From positions 1-60,067 of the IMG/VR virus record IMGVR_UViG_3300034523_000297: a DNA stretch of 60,067 bases, one strand, 5' to 3'. The translations under genes and the position numbers were made by a program. Shown piece by piece: positions 2,440 through 21,257 of this stretch (positions within the stretch are counted from its first letter, which is position 1; each line of letters starts with the position of its first letter). Source of the stretch: a virus. Lineage: Duplodnaviria; Caudoviricetes. The notes beneath the pieces were generated by a model. The model was not told where the DNA came from, made no database searches, and saw only the letters and a list, made by a program, of their open reading frames with translations.

Positions 2440-4356
2440 CTAGAAGCCGGTTTTTCGGCTGTATTCGAACATCACGCACGGATTGTGCAGCGCGAAGACA
2501 TTTCCGAGCGGGGATTCGGCTGTGTCGTACAGCCCGTGCGTGTCCCGCAAGTTGCCGCGAGCGCCGCTGACAGGTCCAGAAGCGTTAGGATCACCTGGAC
2601 GACCTCGCGCATAGCTCAGTACGGCATCGCTCGCAGCAGCGCGGCTCAGGGCGATGCGGACTGTGTCAAATGCCGTCACGCTCACAGAGCTTATTATGGA
2701 AGTGGCGACCGTATCGCTCTCGCGGATATCGAAGCCGAAGTTCGGTGCCGACGCGGCCAGTGCAGTGTCGAGAACGAGCTGTCCACTCGGGACGTGGAAC
2801 TTGATGTCGATGTGGTCGGCGGCCCAGTCAACGGATACCGGCTCAAGCGGTCGCCACTTGCCGTTGCGACGGATCATCGTCTCGTACATAGCGCGACTGA
2901 AATACTCGCCCAGCAGCCAGCTGCCCTCGTTGGTGAGGTGCAGCAGGTCGCCCAGAGTCGGGAAGATGTATACCGGCACAGCCACGACCACGTCCGGACG
3001 CTGGCGGCTTGCGCGCCACTGAGCCAATGCGATTTGCATTGTGTCGCTGGAATACCTGCGGTGGGCGCCGACTTGGTAGGTGAAAAGGTACGGTCTGAAC
3101 TTCTGGCCGGTTATGCTTGCTACTTCTCTCGAGAGCCCATCGAACAGCTCAAGTTCCAGCTGAGCGTACTTGTACGCAGACTTGGTTGCTGTCGCGCCAG
3201 ACCCGGTAGTCGAGTAGTTTGCTTCGCCTTGAATCCAAGCGTAAGCCCACACCGAATAACTTTTGTTCAGGCTCTTCGAGAGAGCAGCTTGGTCCTTTAC
3301 CAGCTGAATCAGCTTTTGGTAGTCGCCGATCCCATTGGGACCTAGGGCTTCTACGCTCTGACCGCCTCGACCTGGTGCACAACCCACGAACACCCAATTG
3401 GCTGCAAGTTCACCGTCTTCTACAGCGCGTCGGGTAACGCCGTTACATAAGCCGGTTACTGGCGTTTCAGCGTCTTCATCTCGAAGCGTCTCTATCAAAG
3501 GAATGTAAGCTGTCGGGTTGTATCCGGGATCGCCAGCCCGAACTTTCGTGCCGCTGGCTAGCATCAGATTGCTATACGGTTGCGTAGTGGAGATCACCGG
3601 AGCTGAGCCAAACCCAACTCCAAGCGACTGACCATAATCTATTACGGCCATGTGGTCGGTCATCTGCTGCTGGTTCAGCTCAAGAGCAACAAACGCCCCT
3701 TGAGAAGCACCGCTCGAAGAATCATCCGCCCCTGAGAAGTCACCGTCTGGATAGATGAAGTCAAGTTCGTCGACAATCTCAATGCCGGTCGCATTGGAGC
3801 GCTCCAATACGAGGTCGTTGATGTCAGATTCATTTGCTCCGAACTTAGCCATCGGATTGCCGGCCAAATCGTAAAGGCCCAGGCCATTCTGCTCGTTGGC
3901 AATTCGCCCTCCCATCATTTCGAGGGAGCCATCATCCAGAAACTCGGCGACTACGAACTCATCTTCTCCAGCGAACTCAGTCGCCGCATCGCTCCAAGTT
4001 GAGTCGAATGTATTGATGTCCTCCCGGATTTCGGCGACCGCCTTCGAGTTCGGATAACTATCTACGAAAACAGCGGCTCCCGCGTCGTTACGGTAGACAT
4101 TTACATACTCATCCTGAGCGCTGGACAGCACGCTGAAGTTGGTGCCATTGGCAGTACCGGCAAGCCCAAGCGCCACCGATGCATAGGGCATTGCCCCGCC
4201 CAGCAAAGTCGCAAGGTTGGTCATCACCATGGCATTGGTGGGGCGAATAACGCCACCACCAACGTCCATCATTTTCACTTCGGGCGAAAGCAGTAGCTCA
4301 TTCGTCGTCCCGACAATCCGGTCCAGCTCTTGAAGAGTCTCTTGGCCGCTCATCAA
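2440..4356 (-). CDS. Tail spike/fibre with SGNH-type (sialate O-acetylesterase-like) domain
   Basis: N-terminal virion anchor region; GQSL, WIQGEAN and DLLH motifs. Confidence 0.75.
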   Translation of the reverse strand: MMSGQETLQELDRIVGTTNELLLSPEVKMMDVGGGVIRPTNAMVMTNLATLLGGAMPYASVALGLAGTANGTNFSVLSSAQDEYVNVYRNDAGAAVFVDSYPNSKAVAEIREDINTFDSTWSDAATEFAGEDEFVVAEFLDDGSLEMMGGRIANEQNGLGLYDLAGNPMAKFGANESDINDLVLERSNATGIEIVDELDFIYPDGDFSGADDSSSGASQGAFVALELNQQQMTDHMAVIDYGQSLGVGFGSAPVISTTQPYSNLMLASGTKVRAGDPGYNPTAYIPLIETLRDEDAETPVTGLCNGVTRRAVEDGELAANWVFVGCAPGRGGQSVEALGPNGIGDYQKLIQLVKDQAALSKSLNKSYSVWAYAWIQGEANYSTTGSGATATKSAYKYAQLELELFDGLSREVASITGQKFRPYLFTYQVGAHRRYSSDTMQIALAQWRASRQRPDVVVAVPVYIFPTLGDLLHLTNEGSWLLGEYFSRAMYETMIRRNGKWRPLEPVSVDWAADHIDIKFHVPSGQLVLDTALAASAPNFGFDIRESDTVATSIISSVSVTAFDTVRIALSRAAASDAVLSYARGRPGDPNASGPVSGARGNLRDTHGLYDTAESPLGNVFALHNPCVMFEYSRKTGF

Positions 4357-13665: not shown

Positions 13666-13726
13666 GCGTTTTCTCCGGGCGAAAAAAAGCCCGCGTCTAA
13701 GCGGGCGCTATAAATTTTGTCTTTGC

Positions 13727-14086
13727 TTAACGGTCAGCCACACCATCAATCAGTGTGTTGACATCAGTTCGAACGGAATTCATGCAAGAGTCGTAATAGC
13801 GCTTTGGGTCTGCCCTTCCTGCGGCTGAGTCAGAGACGGCCAGAGCAATCAGCGCCGCCCCCTTTTTGTCGCCGGAAAGGCCTGACGCTTCGAGGATTTT
13901 CCCTTCCTGCACGCCGTTCCTCGCAGCCAAGACCGCACCTTGATAGACAGCCTGGCTATTGTGGCAATACGAGGCTGCGTTGAAGGCCGCATCAGCAGCC
14001 GCCTTCAGCTCATCCCGACTACTGCCATCCGCCAGTATCGGCATCGATACCGGAAATAGAGCTAACAAAACTAACGCCTTGCGCAT
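13727..14086 (-). CDS. Secreted hypothetical moron protein
   Basis: Signal peptide MRKALVLLALFPVSMPILA; two Cys. Confidence 0.6.
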   Translation of the reverse strand: MRKALVLLALFPVSMPILADGSSRDELKAAADAAFNAASYCHNSQAVYQGAVLAARNGVQEGKILEASGLSGDKKGAALIALAVSDSAAGRADPKRYYDSCMNSVRTDVNTLIDGVADR

Positions 14087-14165
14087 GAGGCATCCCCGAT
14101 CCATTGAGTTCGAGGAAATCTACCATCATCGGCACGATGCGCCAAAACCCCGCCAATGCAGGGTG

Positions 14166-14191
14166 AAAAAGAAAAGGCACCCGAAGGTGCC
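14166..14191 (-). terminator. Intrinsic terminator closing the RAMP/repeat operon
   Basis: Minus strand GGCACC-TTCG-GGTGCC followed by TTTTCTTTTT. Confidence 0.85.
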
Positions 14192-14210
14192 CTCTCGATG
14201 CCGTTTACGG

Positions 14211-14290
14211 CCCATGCCACACCGAGCCATACCATGCCCAGGCGTGCCGCTGCCTGCCAAACCTAACCACGCCGTAACGCGCCAAGTCAT
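14211..14290 (-). repeat. Period-5 (NN-GGY)n array, 16 units
   Basis: Minus strand: AT GAC TT GGC GC GTT AC GGC GT GGT TA GGT TT GGC AG GCA GC GGC AC GCC TG GGC AT GGT AT GGC TC GGT GT GGC AT GGG; every triplet starts with G, 11 of 16 are GGY. Confidence 0.93.
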
Positions 14291-14338
14291 CGGTGCTTAT
14301 GCACCGCAATGTCTCCTCGCAGAAGAGACATTACGCTG
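14211..14338 (-). ncRNA. Putative guide-like RNA unit 2 (hairpin leader + 16-unit NN-GGY array)
   Basis: Leader CGTAATGTCTCTTC-TGC-GAGGAGACATTGCG then GGTGC-ATAA-GCACC, directly followed by the array. Confidence 0.7.
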
Positions 14339-14345
14339 TTTTCAG

Positions 14346-14410
14346 CCCCTGCCGAACCATGCCGGGCCTGACCTTGCCTCACCTAACCCGGGCTAGTCGC
14401 AGCTCGACAT
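14346..14410 (-). repeat. Period-5 (NN-GGY)n array, 13 units
   Basis: Minus strand: AT GTC GA GCT GC GAC TA GCC CG GGT TA GGT GA GGC AA GGT CA GGC CC GGC AT GGT TC GGC AG GGG; 8 consecutive GGY units. Confidence 0.92.
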
Positions 14411-14460
14411 CATGATGCTTTCGCACCGCAATGCCCTCTCATAGAAAGGGCATTACGCTA
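14346..14460 (-). ncRNA. Putative guide-like RNA unit 1 (hairpin leader + 13-unit NN-GGY array)
   Basis: Leader CGTAATGCCCTTTC-TAT-GAGAGGGCATTGCG then GGTGC-GAAA-GCATC; begins right after the stop codon at 14462. Confidence 0.7.
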
Positions 14461-14461
14461 C

Positions 14462-14920
14462 TCAGCGCAAGGCCTTCGTCGCCATCCCGCGCAGCGCGGA
14501 GAACTTAGCCACCTGGTCCAGGTTTTCGCGCCTCTGATCGTCGGTCAGCTCCGTGATCCGCAGATTTCTGAGCTTCTGCCCGGCCCCGCGAAACACCTTG
14601 CGAACACCACGACCCAACTCCTCCATGGCCACGCCAGTCTGCTCATGCGGCGGAACCCAACGGTACCCACGCCCTCGCACCGACTGCAGGCAGACCTGGT
14701 GATCGCGCAGAAGCTCAGCCTTGAACGCCTCCACGTTTGCCAGCCATTCGAACTGCCGGTCGCGGAACTGCTCGACCGTGAGCGACTTGGATTCGCCCAT
14801 GGAGGGCATGCCGAATCGGGCTTCAAGCCAGTCGTGCCCCACAAGGTCGCCGTACTTGAAAGCTTTGAGGAAGTCTTCGACCGCCTGCTTGTGGCTTGGA
14901 TACTTTGTCACCTCAGACAT
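14462..14920 (-). CDS. Partner protein of the RAMP-like gene (possible winged-helix nucleic-acid-binding protein)
   Basis: 152 aa from MSEVTKY; overlaps the RAMP gene stop by 8 nt; LQSVRGRGYR wing-like motif; basic C-terminus. Confidence 0.7.
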   Translation of the reverse strand: MSEVTKYPSHKQAVEDFLKAFKYGDLVGHDWLEARFGMPSMGESKSLTVEQFRDRQFEWLANVEAFKAELLRDHQVCLQSVRGRGYRWVPPHEQTGVAMEELGRGVRKVFRGAGQKLRNLRITELTDDQRRENLDQVAKFSALRGMATKALR

Positions 14921-15488
14921 AGGCCACCTCAAATCGACCGAAGCGTGGGCGGTACTCGCAGACGCCGATCAGCTTGCCGGAGTCCTCGATGGCCTTCTTC
15001 ACCTCCTGAAGGTCAAGCACATCGGCATTGATCGCCACCTCAAGCTGGCAGGCCCAATCGAGGAAGATCGGCCGGTATCGCATGATCTTTGCCTGGCCAA
15101 CCTTCACGCCTCGGCAGTCGACGAAGCGCTGATCCTCCCAAAGCGACTCCGGCGTGTCCGGTCCATTGAATTCCAGGCTGGCCCTGTCGGTCATCACAAG
15201 CGCGCCGCGCTTCCAATGGGTTCCCAGCTTCTGCAGCTTGGCGCCAGCAAGGAAGGTGGCGTCAAAGTTTGCCCCCGGAATGTGGATGCCTGCTCGCTCG
15301 TCGAAGTAAACGCCTGCAATGAACTCGGACTTGGCGATGGCGACATGATCATCATCGACTTTTTTCCGCTTGCTGGTTAGCTCGCGGTGCGCCTTCGTCG
15401 CCGGGTGCAGCGGGTTGGCCAGCTTGTCGCTGTGCATCATCAATGGCGAAGTGCCCTTGATGCTCAGGGTAAGAAGCTCCATGGTCAT
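14913..15488 (-). CDS. Stand-alone Cas7/RAMP-superfamily-like protein
   Basis: N-terminal strand LSIKGTSPLMMH, IPGANF (cf. RAMP IPGSS), R-P-F-W strand, C-terminal Gly-rich loop GKLIGVCEYRPRFGRFEV. Confidence 0.75.
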   Translation of the reverse strand: MTMELLTLSIKGTSPLMMHSDKLANPLHPATKAHRELTSKRKKVDDDHVAIAKSEFIAGVYFDERAGIHIPGANFDATFLAGAKLQKLGTHWKRGALVMTDRASLEFNGPDTPESLWEDQRFVDCRGVKVGQAKIMRYRPIFLDWACQLEVAINADVLDLQEVKKAIEDSGKLIGVCEYRPRFGRFEVAYV

Positions 15489-16369
15489 TTCACCGCCCTC
15501 CGCGCCATGTACTCGAACCGACCGCGAAGGTTCACCACTGCTGCCATCAAGAACTCGAACATGTCCGGGGTCGATACTGGGATATCGCCTGGTGACATGA
15601 CCATCCCCTTGATGAGCTCGCGCGTTGACAGCACGCAGGCATCGTCAGCCACTTCCTCCACTCGCTGATCGCCCTTGTGGTCGAACGAGACCAGATAACG
15701 CTTTTGTGGGCCACCAACGATTTGGACCTGTTCACGCTTCGGTAAAAACTCACCCTCAACCACCGCATAGGCTGCAATGAAGTTCCGGGCGCCATCCAGG
15801 TGCTCTGCCGGGATATCAGCTGCGGATCGGACGCCGAACGCCGCATGCACCTGAGACCAGATCTTTGCCGTCGCGCGCCGCTGCATCTGAACAGGCAGCG
15901 CAGCTACCTTGCCCTTAACGATGGCGCCGAGCATGTGAAATCCATCGGTGCCAATGGTCTGACCGAGGAGGGTCATTGATTGGTTTGCCTCGCGATGATT
16001 CACTGCGCGCCCCTGATTCCAGTAGGACCACAGTGCGTCGTCGCATTCGTTCTGGTAGTCAATCACGCCATCGCGTAGTTCGGGGCGAACCTTGCTTGCA
16101 TGAATCGACATTAACCAGCCCGCGAGCTTACGCAGAGGCAGGCATGCCATTTCGTACTGCTTACCATCGGCACCAGTTGTGGTGATCATCACCATAACTG
16201 AATTGAACCGGCCTCCCTGGAGCTTTGTATGCTGGCTCTTCCAATCCAAGCCCATGCCTTCGACCACTGGCTTCATTGGAATGAATGGTTGTCCGTCTCG
16301 CTCGACGAGCAAAAGCTTCGCTGAACGGAACGGGATGACACTGGATGCAGCTGTGCTATTATCACTCAT
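15485..16369 (-). CDS. Phage antirepressor (P22 Ant N-terminal domain)
   Basis: PMKPVVEGMGLDWKSQ, CLPLRKLAGWL and YQNECDDALW motifs; start could extend to 16462. Confidence 0.9.
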   Translation of the reverse strand: MSDNSTAASSVIPFRSAKLLLVERDGQPFIPMKPVVEGMGLDWKSQHTKLQGGRFNSVMVMITTTGADGKQYEMACLPLRKLAGWLMSIHASKVRPELRDGVIDYQNECDDALWSYWNQGRAVNHREANQSMTLLGQTIGTDGFHMLGAIVKGKVAALPVQMQRRATAKIWSQVHAAFGVRSAADIPAEHLDGARNFIAAYAVVEGEFLPKREQVQIVGGPQKRYLVSFDHKGDQRVEEVADDACVLSTRELIKGMVMSPGDIPVSTPDMFEFLMAAVVNLRGRFEYMARRAVK

Positions 16370-16439
16370 GACGTTGTTTTCCTGATCGATGACTGCGTTG
16401 ATTCCCAAAGCCCTGGCCGTTGGCGCGACCGGGGCTTTT

Positions 16440-16607
16440 TCATGCCCGTTGTTTTTGCTCATCCTGCATCTCCTGCTCCAAGGACTTCCTCAGCCGAAAA
16501 ACGATTTCGCCGCTCAGGCTGCGGCCGTTCTCCTCCGCACGCTGCTCCAGCTTTTGCCGCAGCGTGCAAAGCATCCGTACTGCCGTAGTGATTTTCTCGC
16601 TTCCCAT
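16440..16607 (-). CDS. Arc-family ribbon-helix-helix repressor (55 aa, not in the ORF track)
   Basis: Own translation: MGSEKITTAVRMLCTLRQKLEQRAEENGRSLSGEIVFRLRKSLEQEMQDEQKQRA; typical A..NGRSL..EI..RL..SL motif. Confidence 0.85.
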   Translation of the reverse strand: MGSEKITTAVRMLCTLRQKLEQRAEENGRSLSGEIVFRLRKSLEQEMQDEQKQRA

Positions 16608-16612
16608 TACCC

Positions 16613-16669
16613 TGCTTCCTTTGCTTCATTTACAAGGACGATTCTTGCTTCCTTTGCTTCATTTGTCAA
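16613..16669 (-). promoter_or_regulatory. Sigma70 promoter of the arc-ant-RAMP operon with tandem operator repeats
   Basis: Minus strand TTGACA(16669-16664)-17 bp-AAGAAT(16646-16641); 19-bp direct repeat TGCTTCCTTTGCTTCATTT at 16613 and 16646. Confidence 0.75.
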
Positions 16670-16746
16670 ACACCAATGTGTCATTTGTTGCTTTGTACGT
16701 TTCTGGGAACGTACGCTGTACGCATGCAACAACCTTTGAGCGCTAA

Positions 16747-17235
16747 ATGACTGATCTCTTCGCTGACAAGCTAATCCGACTCCGCACGCAAAAAGGCCTT
16801 ACACAGAGGGACCTTGCCGCGATGGCCGGCCTTTCCTGGTCGCAGATATCGAAATACGAGTCGGGAAAATCGAAGCCCCGCAAGAAAGCTTTATGGGCGC
16901 TGGAGGAGGCGCTTGACTGTCCCGGTGAATTGTCCAGTCAGATAGAAGCCTCGGCAGACGGTACCCATGCAGCCAGCCCCACAATGCAAGATCGCCTAGT
17001 GGAAGCACTCCACTCGCTCGACCCCGAAATCCAAAAGAGATGGAAGGAAGAAGCTAGAGAAAAAGGGCTCAGCTATGAGGATTACATCTTCCGCAGTGTC
17101 AAAGCGAACATGCTGGAGATGTCGCGCGATGCCGAAAAACAGGGTGATAAGAAGACAGCTAACGTCTTGCGGATAGTGGCTCTTGCGCTTTTCCGGTGGA
17201 TGGAAGATCCGGGTGAATCCGCCGAAGATGACTAA
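16747..17235 (+). CDS. XRE-family HTH regulator, divergent from arc
   Basis: LIRLRTQKGLTQRDLA...ISKYESGKSKP. Confidence 0.9.
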   Translation: MTDLFADKLIRLRTQKGLTQRDLAAMAGLSWSQISKYESGKSKPRKKALWALEEALDCPGELSSQIEASADGTHAASPTMQDRLVEALHSLDPEIQKRWKEEAREKGLSYEDYIFRSVKANMLEMSRDAEKQGDKKTANVLRIVALALFRWMEDPGESAEDD

Positions 17236-20093: not shown

Positions 20094-21257
20094 TTACGCG
20101 GTGACCGTGATCGCCGAAGTCGCGGTTTTGGTCGGGTCCGACACGCTAGTGGCGGTGATGACTGCCGAGCCAGCAGCAACGCCGGTGACCAGGCCAGACG
20201 AGTTGACAGTGGCAATCGACGGGTCCGAGCTGCCCCAGGTAACTTCCTGAGAAGCGCCAGATGGCAGCGCAGATGCTGACAACTGGCGGGTCGCGGCTAC
20301 TGCAATCGAAGCGGTAGACGGGGTGACTGACACGCTGGTGACGGGCACGAACGGCACGCGGGTGATGGTCGGGGCCTGCTTGGCAACGGTCCAGTTCAAG
20401 GTCACTTCGATCAGGTCACGCTTACCACCATTCGGCAGATCGCCATCGACCTCAATCGCCGGGAAGGACAGCTCATAGCGGTTGCCCAGGCTATCAGTGA
20501 TCGGGAACTCGGCCGCGATAGTTTTCCGGGTGAACGTGTTCTTCCAGATTTGCCAGGCGCGGCTCGACCAGGCCAGGGTGATGGTGCCGGTGATGGCTGC
20601 CTCAGTCGCGATCTGCGCCCCCGGCCCGAGCTTGCCGCTGCCAATGCAGCGCTGCGCCTGGAGGCTGTTGTCCAGATTTACGGTAAGCGCCGAAACGCAC
20701 GCCACACCTTCCAGGCTCTGCCCGTCGACCGAGATGCTACCAATGTTCAAATTGCTCATGAACGGCGTGGTTGTAGGCGGGCTTATGGTGCCTACGGTAT
20801 TGGTGTCGCCGTCGGCATAGTCCAGGCCAGCCATGGTGAAGGTGGCGGTGATCTTGCCGTCGGACGGGATGTCCAGGGCGAAGACCGAAACGTGCATGCC
20901 GCGGAACAAGGTGTACACGCTCACGTCGTTGAAGTTTTTCGCGACACTGAATGTCCGTCGAGTGCTGCCTACGGTCAGAACGTCATCAGTCCAGGTTCCG
21001 TAGAAGGCCGCCTCCAGCAGCTTATCGAAGGTGCCATAGGACAGCTCGCCAACCAGATCGCCTTGAATATTGGCGCTGGATACGACCGAACCCTGGCTGA
21101 TCCGTGAATCGGTGATCTCATCACTAACCTGAGTGCTCACTGTCGGCGACAGGGTGTTACCGGTTAGGCGCAAGGTATCCCAGGCCCCAGTGGCTGGGGT
21201 TACACCCGGAGAGAGCTCAGTGATCATGTAACTTGTGACTTGGGCGCCGCTGCTCAT
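20094..21257 (-). CDS. Major tail tube protein with C-terminal Ig-like (Big_2) domain
   Basis: MSSGA start typical of the tube family; VTSVSVTP...VTWGSSDPSIATV Ig motif. Confidence 0.92.
   Translation of the reverse strand: MSSGAQVTSYMITELSPGVTPATGAWDTLRLTGNTLSPTVSTQVSDEITDSRISQGSVVSSANIQGDLVGELSYGTFDKLLEAAFYGTWTDDVLTVGSTRRTFSVAKNFNDVSVYTLFRGMHVSVFALDIPSDGKITATFTMAGLDYADGDTNTVGTISPPTTTPFMSNLNIGSISVDGQSLEGVACVSALTVNLDNSLQAQRCIGSGKLGPGAQIATEAAITGTITLAWSSRAWQIWKNTFTRKTIAAEFPITDSLGNRYELSFPAIEVDGDLPNGGKRDLIEVTLNWTVAKQAPTITRVPFVPVTSVSVTPSTASIAVAATRQLSASALPSGASQEVTWGSSDPSIATVNSSGLVTGVAAGSAVITATSVSDPTKTATSAITVTA

What the first reader, a model, noticed from the sequence alone, without database searches (positions are those of the whole stretch)
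14166..15488. Candidate compact RNA-guided system: solo Cas7/RAMP-like protein plus (NN-GGY)n repeat RNAs, with no CRISPR array
Seen: on the minus strand, a 191-aa gene with RAMP/Cas7-like motifs (LSIKGTSPLMMH, IPGANF, C-terminal Gly-rich GVCEYRPRFGRFEV) is followed by a coupled 152-aa gene, two non-coding units (double-hairpin leader + period-5 array of near-constant GGY triplets separated by variable dinucleotides) and a terminator. I found no cas1/2/3/5/6 genes or repeat-spacer array in the window. Known: Cas7 proteins polymerise along guide RNA with a fixed per-subunit period. Inference: one subunit binds each GGY, and the exposed NN pairs spell a discontinuous target, giving a phage-encoded RNA-guided binder or repressor, probably aimed at competing phages or mobile elements. 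From memory this matches the recently reported 'VIPR'-type architecture (Cas7-ancestral protein + GGY/NN RNAs). I could not verify that here, so the system may be an instance of that family rather than wholly new.
Basis: partly seen in the sequence, partly recalled or inferred. Interest (0 to 1): 0.97.

Follow-up and report, generated by a model that had tools for sequence, protein, structure and literature searches.

The report
Prophage VIPR locus targeting rival tail-tube gene
This Pseudomonas prophage carries a further example of the VIPR system published in 2026, a small Cas7-like protein with guide RNAs built from five-base repeats, and its two guides appear to be aimed at the tail-tube gene of a rival phage lineage.

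Summary
The 191-aa protein matches the solved SUSP1 Vipr protein over its full length (PDB 36pp, E 6.3e-43). The 152-aa gene is a homologue of the SUSP1 partner gene, vap1. The only two period-5 GGY tracts in the 60-kb provirus lie just downstream. 46 of 50 IMG/VR relatives have such tracts in the same place.

One correction. The hairpins are a conserved three-hairpin 3' tail, repeated like punctuation, rather than a leader.

I decoded the guides with the published one-base-skip rule:
- vrRNA1 matches 22 of 22 informative bases at the ribosome-binding site and start codon of a different tail-tube allele in 20 viral contigs.
- vrRNA2 matches 21 of 22 inside the same gene in 49 contigs.
- The phage's own allele is spared.
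- A relative with the rival allele carries a guide matching this phage's tube gene.

Expression and binding were not testable.

VIPR is in print (three bioRxiv preprints, 2026). This scan has noted it before on other DNA, including one tail-tube case. This is a new member of a known kind.

The parts
16641..16669 (-). Context: promoter-like site TTGACA-17-AAGAAT in front of the arc-like gene. It is the only sigma-70-like match on this strand upstream of the module.
   Evidence: This is a consensus match only: 2 sites were found in the region against 1.7 expected from shuffles.
16440..16607 (-). Context: 55-aa Arc-like ribbon-helix-helix gene, first gene of the presumed operon.
   Evidence: Pfam Arc PF03869, E 3.3e-08.
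15485..16462 (-). Context: antirepressor (Ant)-like gene. Its stop overlaps the vipr start (ATGA).
   Evidence: Pfam P22_AR_N, E 3e-46. PHROG anti-repressor Ant. Sequence.
14913..15488 (-). vipr: 191-aa Vipr protein, a minimal Cas7-like RAMP.
   Evidence: PDB 36pp_D 'SUSP1 Vipr protein', E 6.3e-43, residues 3-189 against 1-188. GGY-contact residues are kept. The AF2 model's best PDB fold matches are Csm3/Cas7 chains.
14462..14920 (-). vap (vap1-like): 152-aa accessory protein whose start overlaps the vipr stop.
   Evidence: BLASTP against the gene that follows SUSP1 vipr gives E 1e-13, 23% identity over 134 aa. phrog_5926. The AF2 model has pLDDT 88.4, with only weak winged-helix-type fold matches, best E 0.08.
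14414..14466 (-). Head copy of the tail element (P1-like stem overlapping the vap stop codon, then P2 and P3). No tract lies upstream of it.
   Evidence: It folds at -32 kcal/mol, z -5.57. It closely resembles the internal tail in sequence.
14346..14400 (-). vrRNA1 guide tract: 11 units. NN series: GC TA CG TA GA AA CA CC AT TC AG. The first two scaffolds are degenerate (GAC, GCC), then come 8 GGY and a terminal GGG.
   Evidence: All 11 NN match the rival target.
14292..14348 (-). vrRNA1 3' tail: P1 GCUG-AAAA-CAGC (14346-14335), P2 13-bp hairpin (14334-14306), P3 GGUGC-AUAA-GCACC (14305-14292).
   Evidence: Fold z -6.15. Covariation across 72 tails: 97.5% of cells paired, and 12 of 13 P2 pairs show changes on both sides.
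14211..14285 (-). vrRNA2 guide tract: 15 units. NN series: TT GC AC GT TA TT AG GC AC TG AT AT TC GT AT. Three scaffolds are degenerate (GTT, GCA, GCC), and the tract ends in GGG.
   Evidence: Units 4-14 match the rival tube gene at 21 of 22 bases.
14166..14211 (-). vrRNA2 terminal tail: P1 variant GCCG-UAAA-CGGC (14211-14200), then an intrinsic terminator hairpin (14196-14171) and a U-run.
   Evidence: The same terminal form occurs in 28 of 100 unique tail junctions from relatives.
20380..20423 (+). The phage's own allele of the vrRNA2 site, inside its tail-tube gene (20094-21257, minus strand). It matches 22 of 30 bases, below the published 80% cut-off. The skip bases fall on third codon positions.
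   Evidence: 3 of 1000 permuted guides reach 22. Tube protein: PF18906.
20815..20846 (+). Site in this phage's own tail-tube gene that is matched by a guide of the related VIPR phage L029. Of 22 bases, 20 match: all 10 variable NN match, and only the conserved terminal AT does not.
   Evidence: 0 of 1000 permuted guides reach 20; maximum 18.

Best explanation
This is a type II VIPR (Viral Interference Programmable Repeat) locus in a complete Pseudomonas siphophage provirus. It consists of vipr, a vap1-like gene and two vrRNAs. It sits at the end of an arc-ant (P22 immI-like) operon and is closed by an intrinsic terminator.

Mechanism, taken from the published SUSP1 and P. fulva systems and inferred here:
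- Vipr protomers polymerise along each vrRNA, one per five-base unit, and hold the GGY bases.
- The NN pairs are left exposed to pair with double-stranded DNA, skipping every third target base.
- The bound filament blocks transcription.

Shown here by sequence:
- The protein, its GGY-contact residues, the accessory gene, the repeat tracts and a conserved structured 3' tail are all present.
- Decoded by the skip rule, both guides converge on the tail-tube gene of a sister lineage of phages. I call that gene 'type B': 389 aa, about 40% identical to this phage's own tube protein.
- vrRNA1 covers the ribosome-binding site and start codon of that gene. vrRNA2 covers about 11 codons near codon 285.
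- The phage's own allele is not matched.

Inferred consequence: when the operon is on, a type-B phage in the same cell cannot make its tail tube, so this phage wins co-infection or excludes superinfection.

The tails flank each tract. I therefore infer that the vrRNAs are cut out of the operon transcript, with each tail serving as the 3' handle of the guide before it.
For: Family membership
- phmmer finds PDB 36pp_D 'SUSP1 Vipr protein' at E 6.3e-43 over the full length.
- tblastn finds homologues in 136 phage records, including SUSP1 (39.7% identity) and Pseudomonas phage Medea1 (78.9%).
- SUSP1 residues named in the cryo-EM paper map as follows. H17, R39, K82, R138 and R179 are invariant across the 5 aligned proteins. 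D177 is E here, W178 is Y and K33 is R.
- Foldseek on the AF2 model (pLDDT 72.9) ranks Csm3/Cas7 chains first: 6nud_C at E 6.5e-4, then 6ifn_E.
- Vap is homologous to the SUSP1 partner gene (E 1e-13).

Arrays
- The window holds only two phased GGY tracts, against 0.02 expected from shuffles.
- 46 of 50 IMG/VR relatives carry at least one tract on the same strand just after vap.
- SUSP1 shows 1 upstream and 3 downstream tracts, as the paper reports.

Tail
- 72 unique internal tails align. 97.5% of cells form pairs, 12 of 13 P2 pairs show double changes, and 0 of 500 shuffles reach the observed covariation.
- The tract-to-tail junction (GGG then C-Y-G) is fixed, whereas the spacer before each tract varies.
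- 12 of 57 loci start the first tract less than 45 nt after vap, with no hairpins in front of it.

Targets
- The 9-NN pattern of vrRNA1 has 21 exact hits in IMG/VR. Twenty are one homologous site: terminator, ribosome-binding site, then ATG of a gene starting MSSGAK.
- The two upstream degenerate units also match, giving 22 of 22.
- The same pattern read backwards gives 0 hits.
- vrRNA2 units 4-14, with one position left free, have 49 exact hits. All lie at one site in the same gene family, and the skip bases vary as wobble positions.
- 32 of 73 type-B loci score at least 18 of 22 for both guides.
- Both alleles are Phage_tube_2 plus Big_2 proteins.
- There is no self-target. vrRNA1's best match in the window is 13 of 18, which is chance level (877 of 1000 permutations reach it). 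vrRNA2 matches the phage's own allele at 22 of 30.
- vrRNA1 has the same sense as the target mRNA, so it can only pair with DNA.
Against: - No expression or binding data exist for this locus. Three RNA runs of the same species label gave 0 reads, which is no test. The one run that holds the locus is probably DNA.
- Over its whole length, vrRNA2 matches type-B genes at only 22-23 of 30 bases. That is below the paper's 80% rule. The strong match needs the guide to be read as units 4-14.
- A full-length vrRNA2 target was not found anywhere: 0 in IMG/VR, 0 of 401 Pseudomonas genomes at up to 3 mismatches, and 0 in the metagenome contigs.
- By the whole-guide rule, vrRNA2 scores 24 of 30 (80%) on 40 of 56 close relatives' type-A tube genes, so its target is ambiguous.
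- The 20 vrRNA1 hits are homologous copies of one site, not 20 independent events.
- SUSP1 residues E71, M72 and K88 are not conserved.
- The Cas7 fold matches are weak, with TM about 0.3-0.4.
- The 5' ends of the RNAs, and the idea that they are processed out of the operon transcript, are inference only.
Confidence: 0.85

Rival explanations
1. The VIPR locus is the same, but vrRNA2, and perhaps the system as a whole, is aimed at close relatives carrying the same type-A tube gene. That would make it superinfection exclusion of near kin rather than of the type-B lineage.
For: By the published whole-guide criterion (at least 80% of NN), vrRNA2 reaches 24 of 30 on 40 of 56 type-A tube homologues, with units 1-7 matching 14 of 14. 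The phage's own allele scores 22 of 30.
Against: - In type-A genes the mismatches are spread through the 3' half of the guide. The cryo-EM paper shows that R-loop formation starts at that end.
- In type-B genes, 11 consecutive units match 21 of 22.
- vrRNA1 matches only type B, at 22 of 22. At its own type-A start region I counted about 9 of 22 by hand on the sequence. The window scan found no site at 70% or more for the 11-NN guide.
- The margin between 24 and 22 of 30 is only two bases.
Confidence: 0.15
2. The module is a decaying or silent passenger. The genes are intact, but the guides are degenerate and no longer work (5 of 26 scaffolds are not GGY), or the RNAs are never made because the immI-like operon is repressed.
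For: - Degenerate units GAC, GCC, GTT, GCA and GCC.
- No promoter-like site between ant and the tracts.
- No RNA evidence.
Against: - vipr and vap are intact and closely similar to many relatives (up to 98% identity; 91%).
- The paper says internal degeneracy is frequent in vrRNAs.
- The NN beside the two degenerate units of vrRNA1 still match the target, which would be unlikely if those units were drifting freely.
- The tails keep their pairing through compensatory changes.
Confidence: 0.07
3. The tracts act as ordinary antisense small RNAs on mRNA, or are G-rich structural or repeat DNA such as REP-like elements, and are unrelated to the protein.
For: The cryo-EM paper reports that VIPR can also pair with an RNA target in vitro. 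vrRNA2 is antisense to the tube mRNA.
Against: - vrRNA1 has the same sense as its target gene and cannot pair with that mRNA.
- Matches appear only when every third base is skipped and the GGY bases are removed, which ordinary antisense pairing does not explain.
- The tracts co-occur with vipr in 46 of 50 relatives.
- Tandem Repeats Finder does not call them, because the NN differ from unit to unit. This is unlike slippage repeats.
Confidence: 0.03
4. The protein is a remnant or hijacked subunit of a CRISPR-Cas type I/III/IV system, or a decoy that interferes with host CRISPR complexes.
For: The fold matches are to Csm3, Cmr4 and Cas7 subunits.
Against: - No Pfam RAMP match, no Cas1 and no CRISPR-like repeats in the provirus.
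- The direct sequence match is to Vipr, not to any Cas7 chain in the PDB. Only one chain was found even at E up to 10.
- The accessory gene and the RNA architecture are those of VIPR.
Confidence: 0.02

Closest known systems
Type II VIPR of Escherichia phage SUSP1 (Vipr, vap1, four vrRNAs; PDB 36pp; bioRxiv 10.64898/2026.04.26.720920, .720927 and 10.64898/2026.10.15.759431)
   Same: - Vipr is homologous over its full length (about 40% identity), with the key GGY-binding residues kept.
- The vap1 homologue follows directly.
- The vrRNAs are built of YNNGG units, end in GGG, and are followed by a conserved structured 3' tail.
- Predicted targets are in competing mobile elements, with skip bases on codon wobble positions.
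- There is no self-target.
   Different: - The host is Pseudomonas, and the phage is temperate rather than a lytic Felix O1-like phage.
- There is no vrRNA upstream of vipr.
- The tail is three hairpins (4-bp P1, 13-bp P2, about 5-bp P3), not the roughly 40-nt pseudoknot tail described for SUSP1. One extra copy precedes the first tract.
- The module is fused to an arc-ant operon.
- The predicted target is a rival phage's tail-tube gene, not a satellite's recombinase.
Pseudomonas fulva prophage VIPR and its clade (same preprints; 32 loci, 96 vrRNAs)
   Same: - Pseudomonas prophage setting, a type II system with vap1, and vrRNAs downstream of the genes.
- Nearest genomic relatives of this Vipr (96% identity) are in P. 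entomophila, P. laurentiana and a Pseudomonas sp..
- The paper reports targets in resident Pseudomonas prophages and in other VIPR systems.
   Different: - I could not obtain the P. fulva sequence, so identity to it and membership of its '>90%' clade are untested.
[quoted passage not shown] Here both guides hit a structural gene.
- The paper's target tables (data S3, fig. S15) were not visible to me and may already list tail genes.
Class 1 CRISPR Cas7 (Csm3/Cmr4/Cas7) backbone filaments
   Same: - RRM-type fold with a glycine-rich C-terminal loop. The best PDB fold matches of the model are Csm3/Cas7 chains.
- One subunit per fixed RNA period, with periodic bases flipped out of the guide-target duplex (mechanism taken from the papers).
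   Different: - No match to the Pfam RAMP model.
- No CRISPR array, Cas1 or other cas genes seen.
- The period is 5 nt with 2 pairing bases, not 6 nt with 5 pairing bases.
- The guides are hard-wired genes, not acquired spacers.
P22 immI region (mnt-arc-ant)
   Same: A divergent HTH repressor gene, then an Arc-like gene and an Ant-like gene in one operon inside the late/tail region.
   Different: Here the operon continues into vipr, vap and the vrRNAs. Regulation by Arc or the HTH protein is inferred, not tested.

Membership tests
VIPR (type II) | Vipr protein homologous to the reference Vipr | tested here: met
   PDB 36pp_D SUSP1 Vipr, E 6.3e-43, full length. 39.7% identity to the SUSP1 gene by tblastn.
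VIPR (type II) | Minimal RAMP fold (single RRM core, thumb, glycine-rich loop) | tested here: met
   The top Foldseek PDB hits of the AF2 model (pLDDT 72.9) are Csm3/Cas7 chains, with 6nud_C at E 6.5e-4 and prob 0.97, then 6ifn_E. The scores are weak (TM 0.3-0.4). The fold library predates the Vipr entry. The C-terminal GVCEYRPRFGRF loop aligns with the SUSP1 G-loop.
VIPR (type II) | Residues that read GGY in the SUSP1 structure (H17, R138, D177, W178, R179) | tested here: met
   H17, R138 and R179 are invariant. D177 is E and W178 is Y, both conservative changes (residue roles).
VIPR (type II) | Adjacent vrRNA tract of at least 4 YNNGG repeats with variable NN (the paper's calling rule) | tested here: met
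   Tracts of 11 and 15 units. They are the only two in the window, against 0.02 expected by chance. Calling rule.
VIPR (type II) | Conserved structured 3' tail directly after the last repeat | tested here: met
   The junction is fixed (GGG then P1). There are three hairpins with strong covariation across 72 tails. The sequence and fold differ from the SUSP1 pseudoknot tail.
VIPR (type II) | vap1 accessory gene next to vipr | tested here: met
   BLASTP against the SUSP1 gene after vipr gives E 1e-13 over 134 aa. A winged-helix fold is only weakly suggested.
VIPR (type II) | Viral or proviral location, with no CRISPR array or cas genes | tested here: met
   The window is a whole IMG/VR provirus record. 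No CRISPR-like repeats, Rfam hits, Cas1 or Pfam RAMPs were found. Other cas families were not searched.
VIPR (type II) | Natural targets under the 1-nt skip rule (at least 80% of NN), and none in the element itself | tested here: met
   vrRNA1 matches 22 of 22 in 20 contigs. vrRNA2 matches 21 of 22 over units 4-14 in 49 contigs, but 22-23 of 30 over the whole guide. The best self matches are 13 of 18 and 22 of 30.
VIPR (type II) | vrRNAs are expressed and co-purify with Vipr | not testable with these tools
   No RNA reads were found. Three RNA runs gave 0 reads, which is no test.
VIPR (type II) | NN-programmed binding of dsDNA and transcriptional silencing | not testable with these tools
   Needs a bench assay. 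This is inferred from the homologous SUSP1 and P. fulva systems.
CRISPR-Cas Cas7/RAMP subunit | Match to curated RAMP/Cas7 sequence families | tested here: not met
   No Pfam family above cut-off. PF03787 is not found in six frames. No PADLOC or NCBIfam model matches.
CRISPR-Cas Cas7/RAMP subunit | Associated CRISPR array and adaptation genes | tested here: not met

The most novel reading that the evidence does not exclude
Two lineages of Pseudomonas siphophages differ in their tail-tube allele and carry VIPR guides against each other's tube gene.

- This phage (type A) holds guides that match type B at 22 of 22 and 21 of 22 bases.
- The type-B phage L029 holds a guide whose 10 variable NN all match this phage's tube gene.

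VIPR would then work as a reciprocal, allele-specific incompatibility system. It would decide which tail type is assembled in a co-infected or poly-lysogenic cell, and it could drive diversification of tube genes at the DNA level.

In addition, the three-hairpin tail would act as CRISPR-repeat-like punctuation, letting the guides be cut out of an arc-ant (immI-type) operon transcript. The weapon would then be timed by the antirepressor switch.
Probability: 0.4. Interest if true: 0.5.

Novelty: new member of a known kind. Interest (0 to 1): 0.3.

Why it matters
VIPR was described in 2026 as an RNA-guided DNA-silencing system that uses a gapped code, and it is proposed to be older than CRISPR. 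Another instance does not change that picture.

This locus is a clean natural example. Both guides converge on one structural gene of a rival lineage: one sits on its ribosome-binding site and start codon, the other on codons with the skipped bases at wobble positions. The phage's own allele escapes, and a rival carries the reverse guide.

This gives a directly testable pair of phages for asking how many mismatches VIPR tolerates. It also allows tests of which end of the guide matters, how guides are processed in the Pseudomonas clade, and whether VIPR shapes the mosaic exchange of tail genes.

Tried and rejected
RNA evidence
- The look-up of sequencing runs listed 24 runs. I laid 4 of them.
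- Three single-cell RNA runs of the same species label gave 0 reads, which is no test.
- X2 (contigs, probably DNA) holds 14100-15491 with 12 differences. It therefore shows that the DNA is present, not that it is expressed.

Search for a full-length vrRNA2 target
- All 15 NN, exact: 0 in IMG/VR.
- 0 of 5 related genomes at up to 3 mismatches.
- 0 of 401 Pseudomonas genomes at up to 3 mismatches.
- First 10 NN: 0 in IMG/VR.
- Units 1-14: 0 in metagenome contigs.
- Units 4-14 exact: 0 in metagenome contigs.
- A perfect target is therefore not in these collections. The best match is 21 of 22 over units 4-14.

Fold searches
- The Foldseek PDB library ends on 2026-04-08 and does not hold the Vipr entry, so it could only show the Cas7 resemblance.
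- The Vap model gave no match at E 0.001 or better, only weak winged-helix-type rows. I do not claim a fold for Vap.

Family libraries
- Rfam gave only a sub-threshold Trp_leader match at 13681-13769 (E 0.023, 25.7 bits against a gathering score of 41). It lies on a terminator-like hairpin and I treat it as chance.
- Pfam, NCBIfam and PADLOC hold no model for Vipr or Vap.

Guides of relatives scanned against the window
- Of 75 unique guides, 9 reach 80%, against 4 of 75 permuted guides.
- The short guides (7-8 NN) are at chance level. Only the L029 guide stands out.
- The L008 guide on vipr is at chance level (69 of 500 permutations reach it). The L031 guide is borderline (1 of 500).

Limits on what I saw
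- The output was cut, so I saw only part of the loci by eye.
- Before the tail counts I dropped 6 of 106 unique junction calls as false positives, by eye.
- Supplementary files of the papers (target tables data S3, figs S6, S8, S15) were not available. They may already describe the Pseudomonas tail structure and tail-gene targets.

Reading considered and rejected
- That the double hairpin is a 5' leader. Twelve of 57 loci lack it before the first tract. Several loci, such as Medea1, L015 and L038, end with it and have no tract after it.


Full report
What is there

The window is a complete IMG/VR provirus record of 60,067 bases. On the minus strand, a 191-aa ORF (14913-15488) is followed by a 152-aa ORF (14920-14462) whose start overlaps the first gene's stop. 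About 300 nt of non-coding sequence then ends in an intrinsic terminator at 14196-14171.

The non-coding part holds two tracts with a GGY triplet every five bases and a variable dinucleotide between triplets:
- Tract 1 has 8 of 8 GGY at 14351-14388, plus a terminal GGG. Two degenerate units (GAC, GCC) lie upstream in the same phase.
- Tract 2 has 11 GGY in 14 units at 14216-14283, plus a terminal GGG.

A scanner for phased GGY finds no other tract on either strand of the window. Fifty dinucleotide-preserving shuffles gave a mean of 0.02 tracts. Tandem Repeats Finder does not report the tracts, because the NN differ from unit to unit.

No CRISPR machinery was found. There are no CRISPR-like repeats, no Rfam family above threshold, no Cas1 and no Pfam RAMP domain in the window.

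What it is

The 191-aa protein has no Pfam, NCBIfam or PADLOC family, only PHROG 4652 of unknown function. Against the sequences of solved structures it finds a single chain, 36pp_D 'SUSP1 Vipr protein', at E 6.3e-43 over its whole length. tblastn finds homologues in 136 phage records, among them SUSP1 (39.7% identity) and Pseudomonas phage Medea1 (78.9%).

VIPR is described in three bioRxiv preprints of 2026:
- 10.64898/2026.04.26.720920: I read the abstract, the whole Results, four Methods sections and some legends.
- 10.64898/2026.04.26.720927: I read the abstract and most of the Results.
- 10.64898/2026.10.15.759431: I read the abstract and some passages.
- A fourth preprint (10.64898/2026.10.21.760802, passages only) recovers VIPR arrays with a language model.

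The published system consists of a Vipr protein, an accessory vap gene, and vrRNAs of 9-16 YNNGG repeats followed by a conserved 3' tail. One protomer binds each repeat, the GGY bases are held by the protein, and the NN pair with double-stranded DNA while every third target base is skipped. The result is transcriptional silencing of competing mobile elements.

In an alignment with SUSP1 Vipr, the residues that paper 720927 names for reading GGY are kept. H17, R138 and R179 are invariant, D177 is E and W178 is Y. R39 and K82 are also invariant and K33 is R, while E71, M72 and K88 are not conserved.

An AlphaFold2 model (24-sequence alignment, pLDDT 72.9) finds Csm3/Cas7 chains as its best PDB fold matches (6nud_C at E 6.5e-4, then 6ifn_E and others). 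The scores are weak. The fold library predates the Vipr entry.

The 152-aa protein is homologous to the gene that follows vipr in SUSP1, which the paper calls vap1 (E 1e-13, 23% identity over 134 aa). Its model is confident (pLDDT 88.4) but has no significant fold match. The weak rows are mostly winged-helix DNA-binding domains.

Relatives

The search for related loci returned 50 IMG/VR loci with 65-98% identical Vipr and 10 genome loci. The nearest genome loci (96%) are in Pseudomonas entomophila, P. laurentiana and a Pseudomonas MAG. A wider search found 513 proteins at E 1e-5 or better. All that were named are called hypothetical, and none carries a Pfam domain.

In 46 of the 50 IMG/VR loci, at least one phased GGY tract (5 or more units) lies on the vipr strand just after vap. 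The four misses:
- L018 and L024 have visibly degenerate tracts.
- L036 ends soon after vipr.
- L046 has a truncated vipr.

Three further tracts lie elsewhere in these loci (L006, L047, L053). The scanner also recovers one upstream and three downstream tracts in SUSP1, as the paper reports.

Every tract ends in NN-GGG. The terminal NN is AT in 63 of 100 unique junctions. Each tract runs straight into three hairpins:
- P1, a 4-bp hairpin (GCUG-NAAA-CAGC).
- P2, a 13-bp hairpin with a conserved CUUC...GAG top.
- P3, a short hairpin.

In the window this element folds at z -6.15. Across 72 unique internal tails, 97.5% of cells form standard pairs and 12 of 13 P2 pairs show changes on both sides. 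None of 500 shuffles reaches the observed covariation, and sliding the partners by one to three columns drops pairing to 34-58%.

The last tract of an array instead carries a compensated P1 (GCCG-UAAA-CGGC) followed by the terminator. This terminal form accounts for 28 of 100 junctions.

Three things point to a 3' tail, as published, rather than a 5' leader:
- The junction between tract and tail is fixed, while the spacer before each tract is variable.
- 12 of 57 loci have their first tract less than 45 nt after vap, with no hairpins in front of it.
- Several loci end with a full tail and no following tract, for example Medea1, L015 and L038.

In this window and most close relatives, one extra tail copy sits at the head of the array and overlaps the vap stop codon. 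The layout is therefore tail-tract-tail-tract-terminal tail. I infer, without data, that the tails also mark where the guides are cut out of a longer transcript. The only promoter-like site on this strand lies at 16669-16641, in front of an Arc-like gene (Pfam Arc) and an Ant-like gene (P22_AR_N) whose stop overlaps the vipr start.

Targets

I read the NN series in the YNNGG register:
- vrRNA1: GC TA CG TA GA AA CA CC AT TC AG
- vrRNA2: TT GC AC GT TA TT AG GC AC TG AT AT TC GT AT

I searched them as NN-x-NN patterns on both strands.

Within the window nothing reaches the paper's 80% cut-off. vrRNA1's best match is 13 of 18, a level that 877 of 1000 permuted guides also reach. vrRNA2's best match is 22 of 30 at 20380-20423, which only 3 of 1000 permuted guides reach. 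That site lies in the phage's own tail-tube gene (20094-21257; Phage_tube_2 plus Big_2), with the skipped bases on third codon positions.

In IMG/VR the nine clean NN of vrRNA1 have 21 exact hits. Twenty are one homologous site: a terminator hairpin, then the ribosome-binding site and ATG of a gene starting MSSGAK. The two degenerate upstream units match there too, giving 22 of 22. The pattern read backwards has no hit.

The gene at that site is a 389-aa tail-tube protein, 39-43% identical to the window's own. I call it type B. At the window's own start region I count about 9 of 22 by hand on the sequence. The scan found no site at 70% or more for the 11-NN guide. vrRNA1 has the sense of the target's coding strand, so it can pair only with DNA.

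In the same type-B genes, vrRNA2 matches at a fixed offset of 837 nt from the ATG. With units 4-14 and one position left free, 49 contigs match exactly. All are at this one site, which encodes [S/A]T[D/E]IIQVELNYTARR. The NN positions are constant and the skipped bases vary. This is 21 of 22 for the core but 22-23 of 30 for the whole guide. Of 73 type-B loci, 32 score at least 18 of 22 for both guides, 37 for the vrRNA2 core only, and 4 for vrRNA1 only. One contig (L124) has 22 of 22 and 21 of 22.

Results that count against this reading

- No full-length target of vrRNA2 exists in the collections searched.
- By the whole-guide rule, vrRNA2 scores 24 of 30 on 40 of 56 type-A relatives (23 on 9, 22 on 5, 21 on 1 and 19 on 1). 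Its units 1-7 match those genes 14 of 14.
- The guide therefore looks chimeric between the two allele families.

I favour type B for three reasons. The match there is an unbroken run next to the 3' tail, which is where paper 720927 sees R-loop formation begin. The mismatched last NN is the conserved AT. And vrRNA1 points to the same gene. This choice is still an inference.

Reciprocity

I scanned 75 unique guides taken from 53 related loci against the window. One stands out. The first vrRNA of L029 matches 20 of 22 bases at 20815-20846, inside this phage's tube gene. All ten variable NN match, only the terminal AT does not, and the skips fall on wobble positions. None of 1000 permuted guides reaches 20.

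The L029 phage has a type-B tube gene (41% identity). Some vrRNA1 or vrRNA2 target contigs are themselves VIPR-bearing relatives: L142 is on the same contig as L037, L159 as L008, and L170 as L027. The best target phage, L124, has no Vipr.

Two guides of relatives (L031 at 20 of 26, L008 at 18 of 24) fall on the window's vipr gene at 15367-15404. Both are below 80%, and only the L031 match is unusual against permutations (1 of 500).

What is not shown

Expression, processing, Vipr binding and silencing were not tested for this locus. The only sequencing run that holds the locus is probably DNA, and three RNA runs gave no reads. Type II assignment rests on homology to SUSP1 Vipr and vap1. I could not compare with the P. 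fulva sequence. The papers' supplementary tables were not available and may already list such targets.

Verdict

It is a new member of a known kind.

This scan has noted VIPR loci many times on other DNA: 1038 notes in at least 599 genomes. They include a related Pseudomonas prophage whose guides were also read as aimed at rival tail-tube genes (e1-6203737). I reached the tube-gene reading from my own searches before seeing that note.

What this locus adds is a clean and apparently reciprocal natural pair of guide and target alleles, together with a covariation-supported three-hairpin tail for the Pseudomonas clade.

Noticed in passing
window 15485-17235: The VIPR module is the distal end of a P22 immI-like unit. 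A divergent HTH repressor gene (16747-17235, plus strand; RstR/DicA-like) faces a promoter-like site at 16669-16641. That site is followed by an Arc-like gene (16607-16440) and an Ant-like gene (16462-15485) whose stop overlaps the vipr start. Pseudomonas phage Medea1 has the same order: HTH, Arc, Rha/Ant, vipr, vap.
   Followed up: partly
window 20815-20846 (+): A guide of the related VIPR phage L029, which has the other tube allele, matches all 10 of its variable NN in this phage's own tail-tube gene. None of 1000 permuted guides does as well. The targeting therefore looks reciprocal.
   Followed up: yes
window 15367-15404 (-): Guides from two relatives fall on the same stretch of this phage's vipr gene, which encodes PATKAHRELTSKR: L031 at 20 of 26 and L008 at 18 of 24. 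Both are below the 80% cut-off, and L008's match is at chance level. The papers report guides aimed at other VIPR systems.
   Followed up: partly
L012-L014, L016, L019-L022 (about 4089-4231 in each locus): Some relatives have single uninterrupted tracts of 17-29 phased units, for example 26 GGY in 29 units in L013. This is well beyond the 9-16 repeats given in the paper. They may be very long guides, or two guides fused without a tail between them.
   Followed up: no
L042 about 3180-3222; also L041, L043, L045, L049, L051, L058, L061, L062, L064: In these loci the first tract begins within about 30 nt of the vap stop. In L042 it overlaps the stop codon, so coding sequence and guide share bases. 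No head copy of the tail is present.
   Followed up: partly
window 15491: A 34-kb contig of run X2 matches 14100-15491 with 12 differences and then diverges exactly upstream of the vipr start. This suggests that vipr, vap and the vrRNAs move as a cassette, independently of the antirepressor gene.
   Followed up: no
window 14211-14285: vrRNA2 looks chimeric. Units 1-7 match the type-A tube family 14 of 14, while units 4-14 match the type-B family 21 of 22. No sequence matching the whole guide was found. How such guides arise is unexplained. Recombination between guides, or copying from a tube allele that has not been sampled, are two possibilities.
   Followed up: partly
window 13727-14104 (-): A 125-aa ORF lies between the VIPR terminator and the tape-measure gene. 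Its N-terminus looks like a signal peptide, it matches no Pfam or PHROG family, and it has its own terminator-like hairpin at 13706-13689. It may be a moron. Relatives carry different small genes in this position.
   Followed up: no
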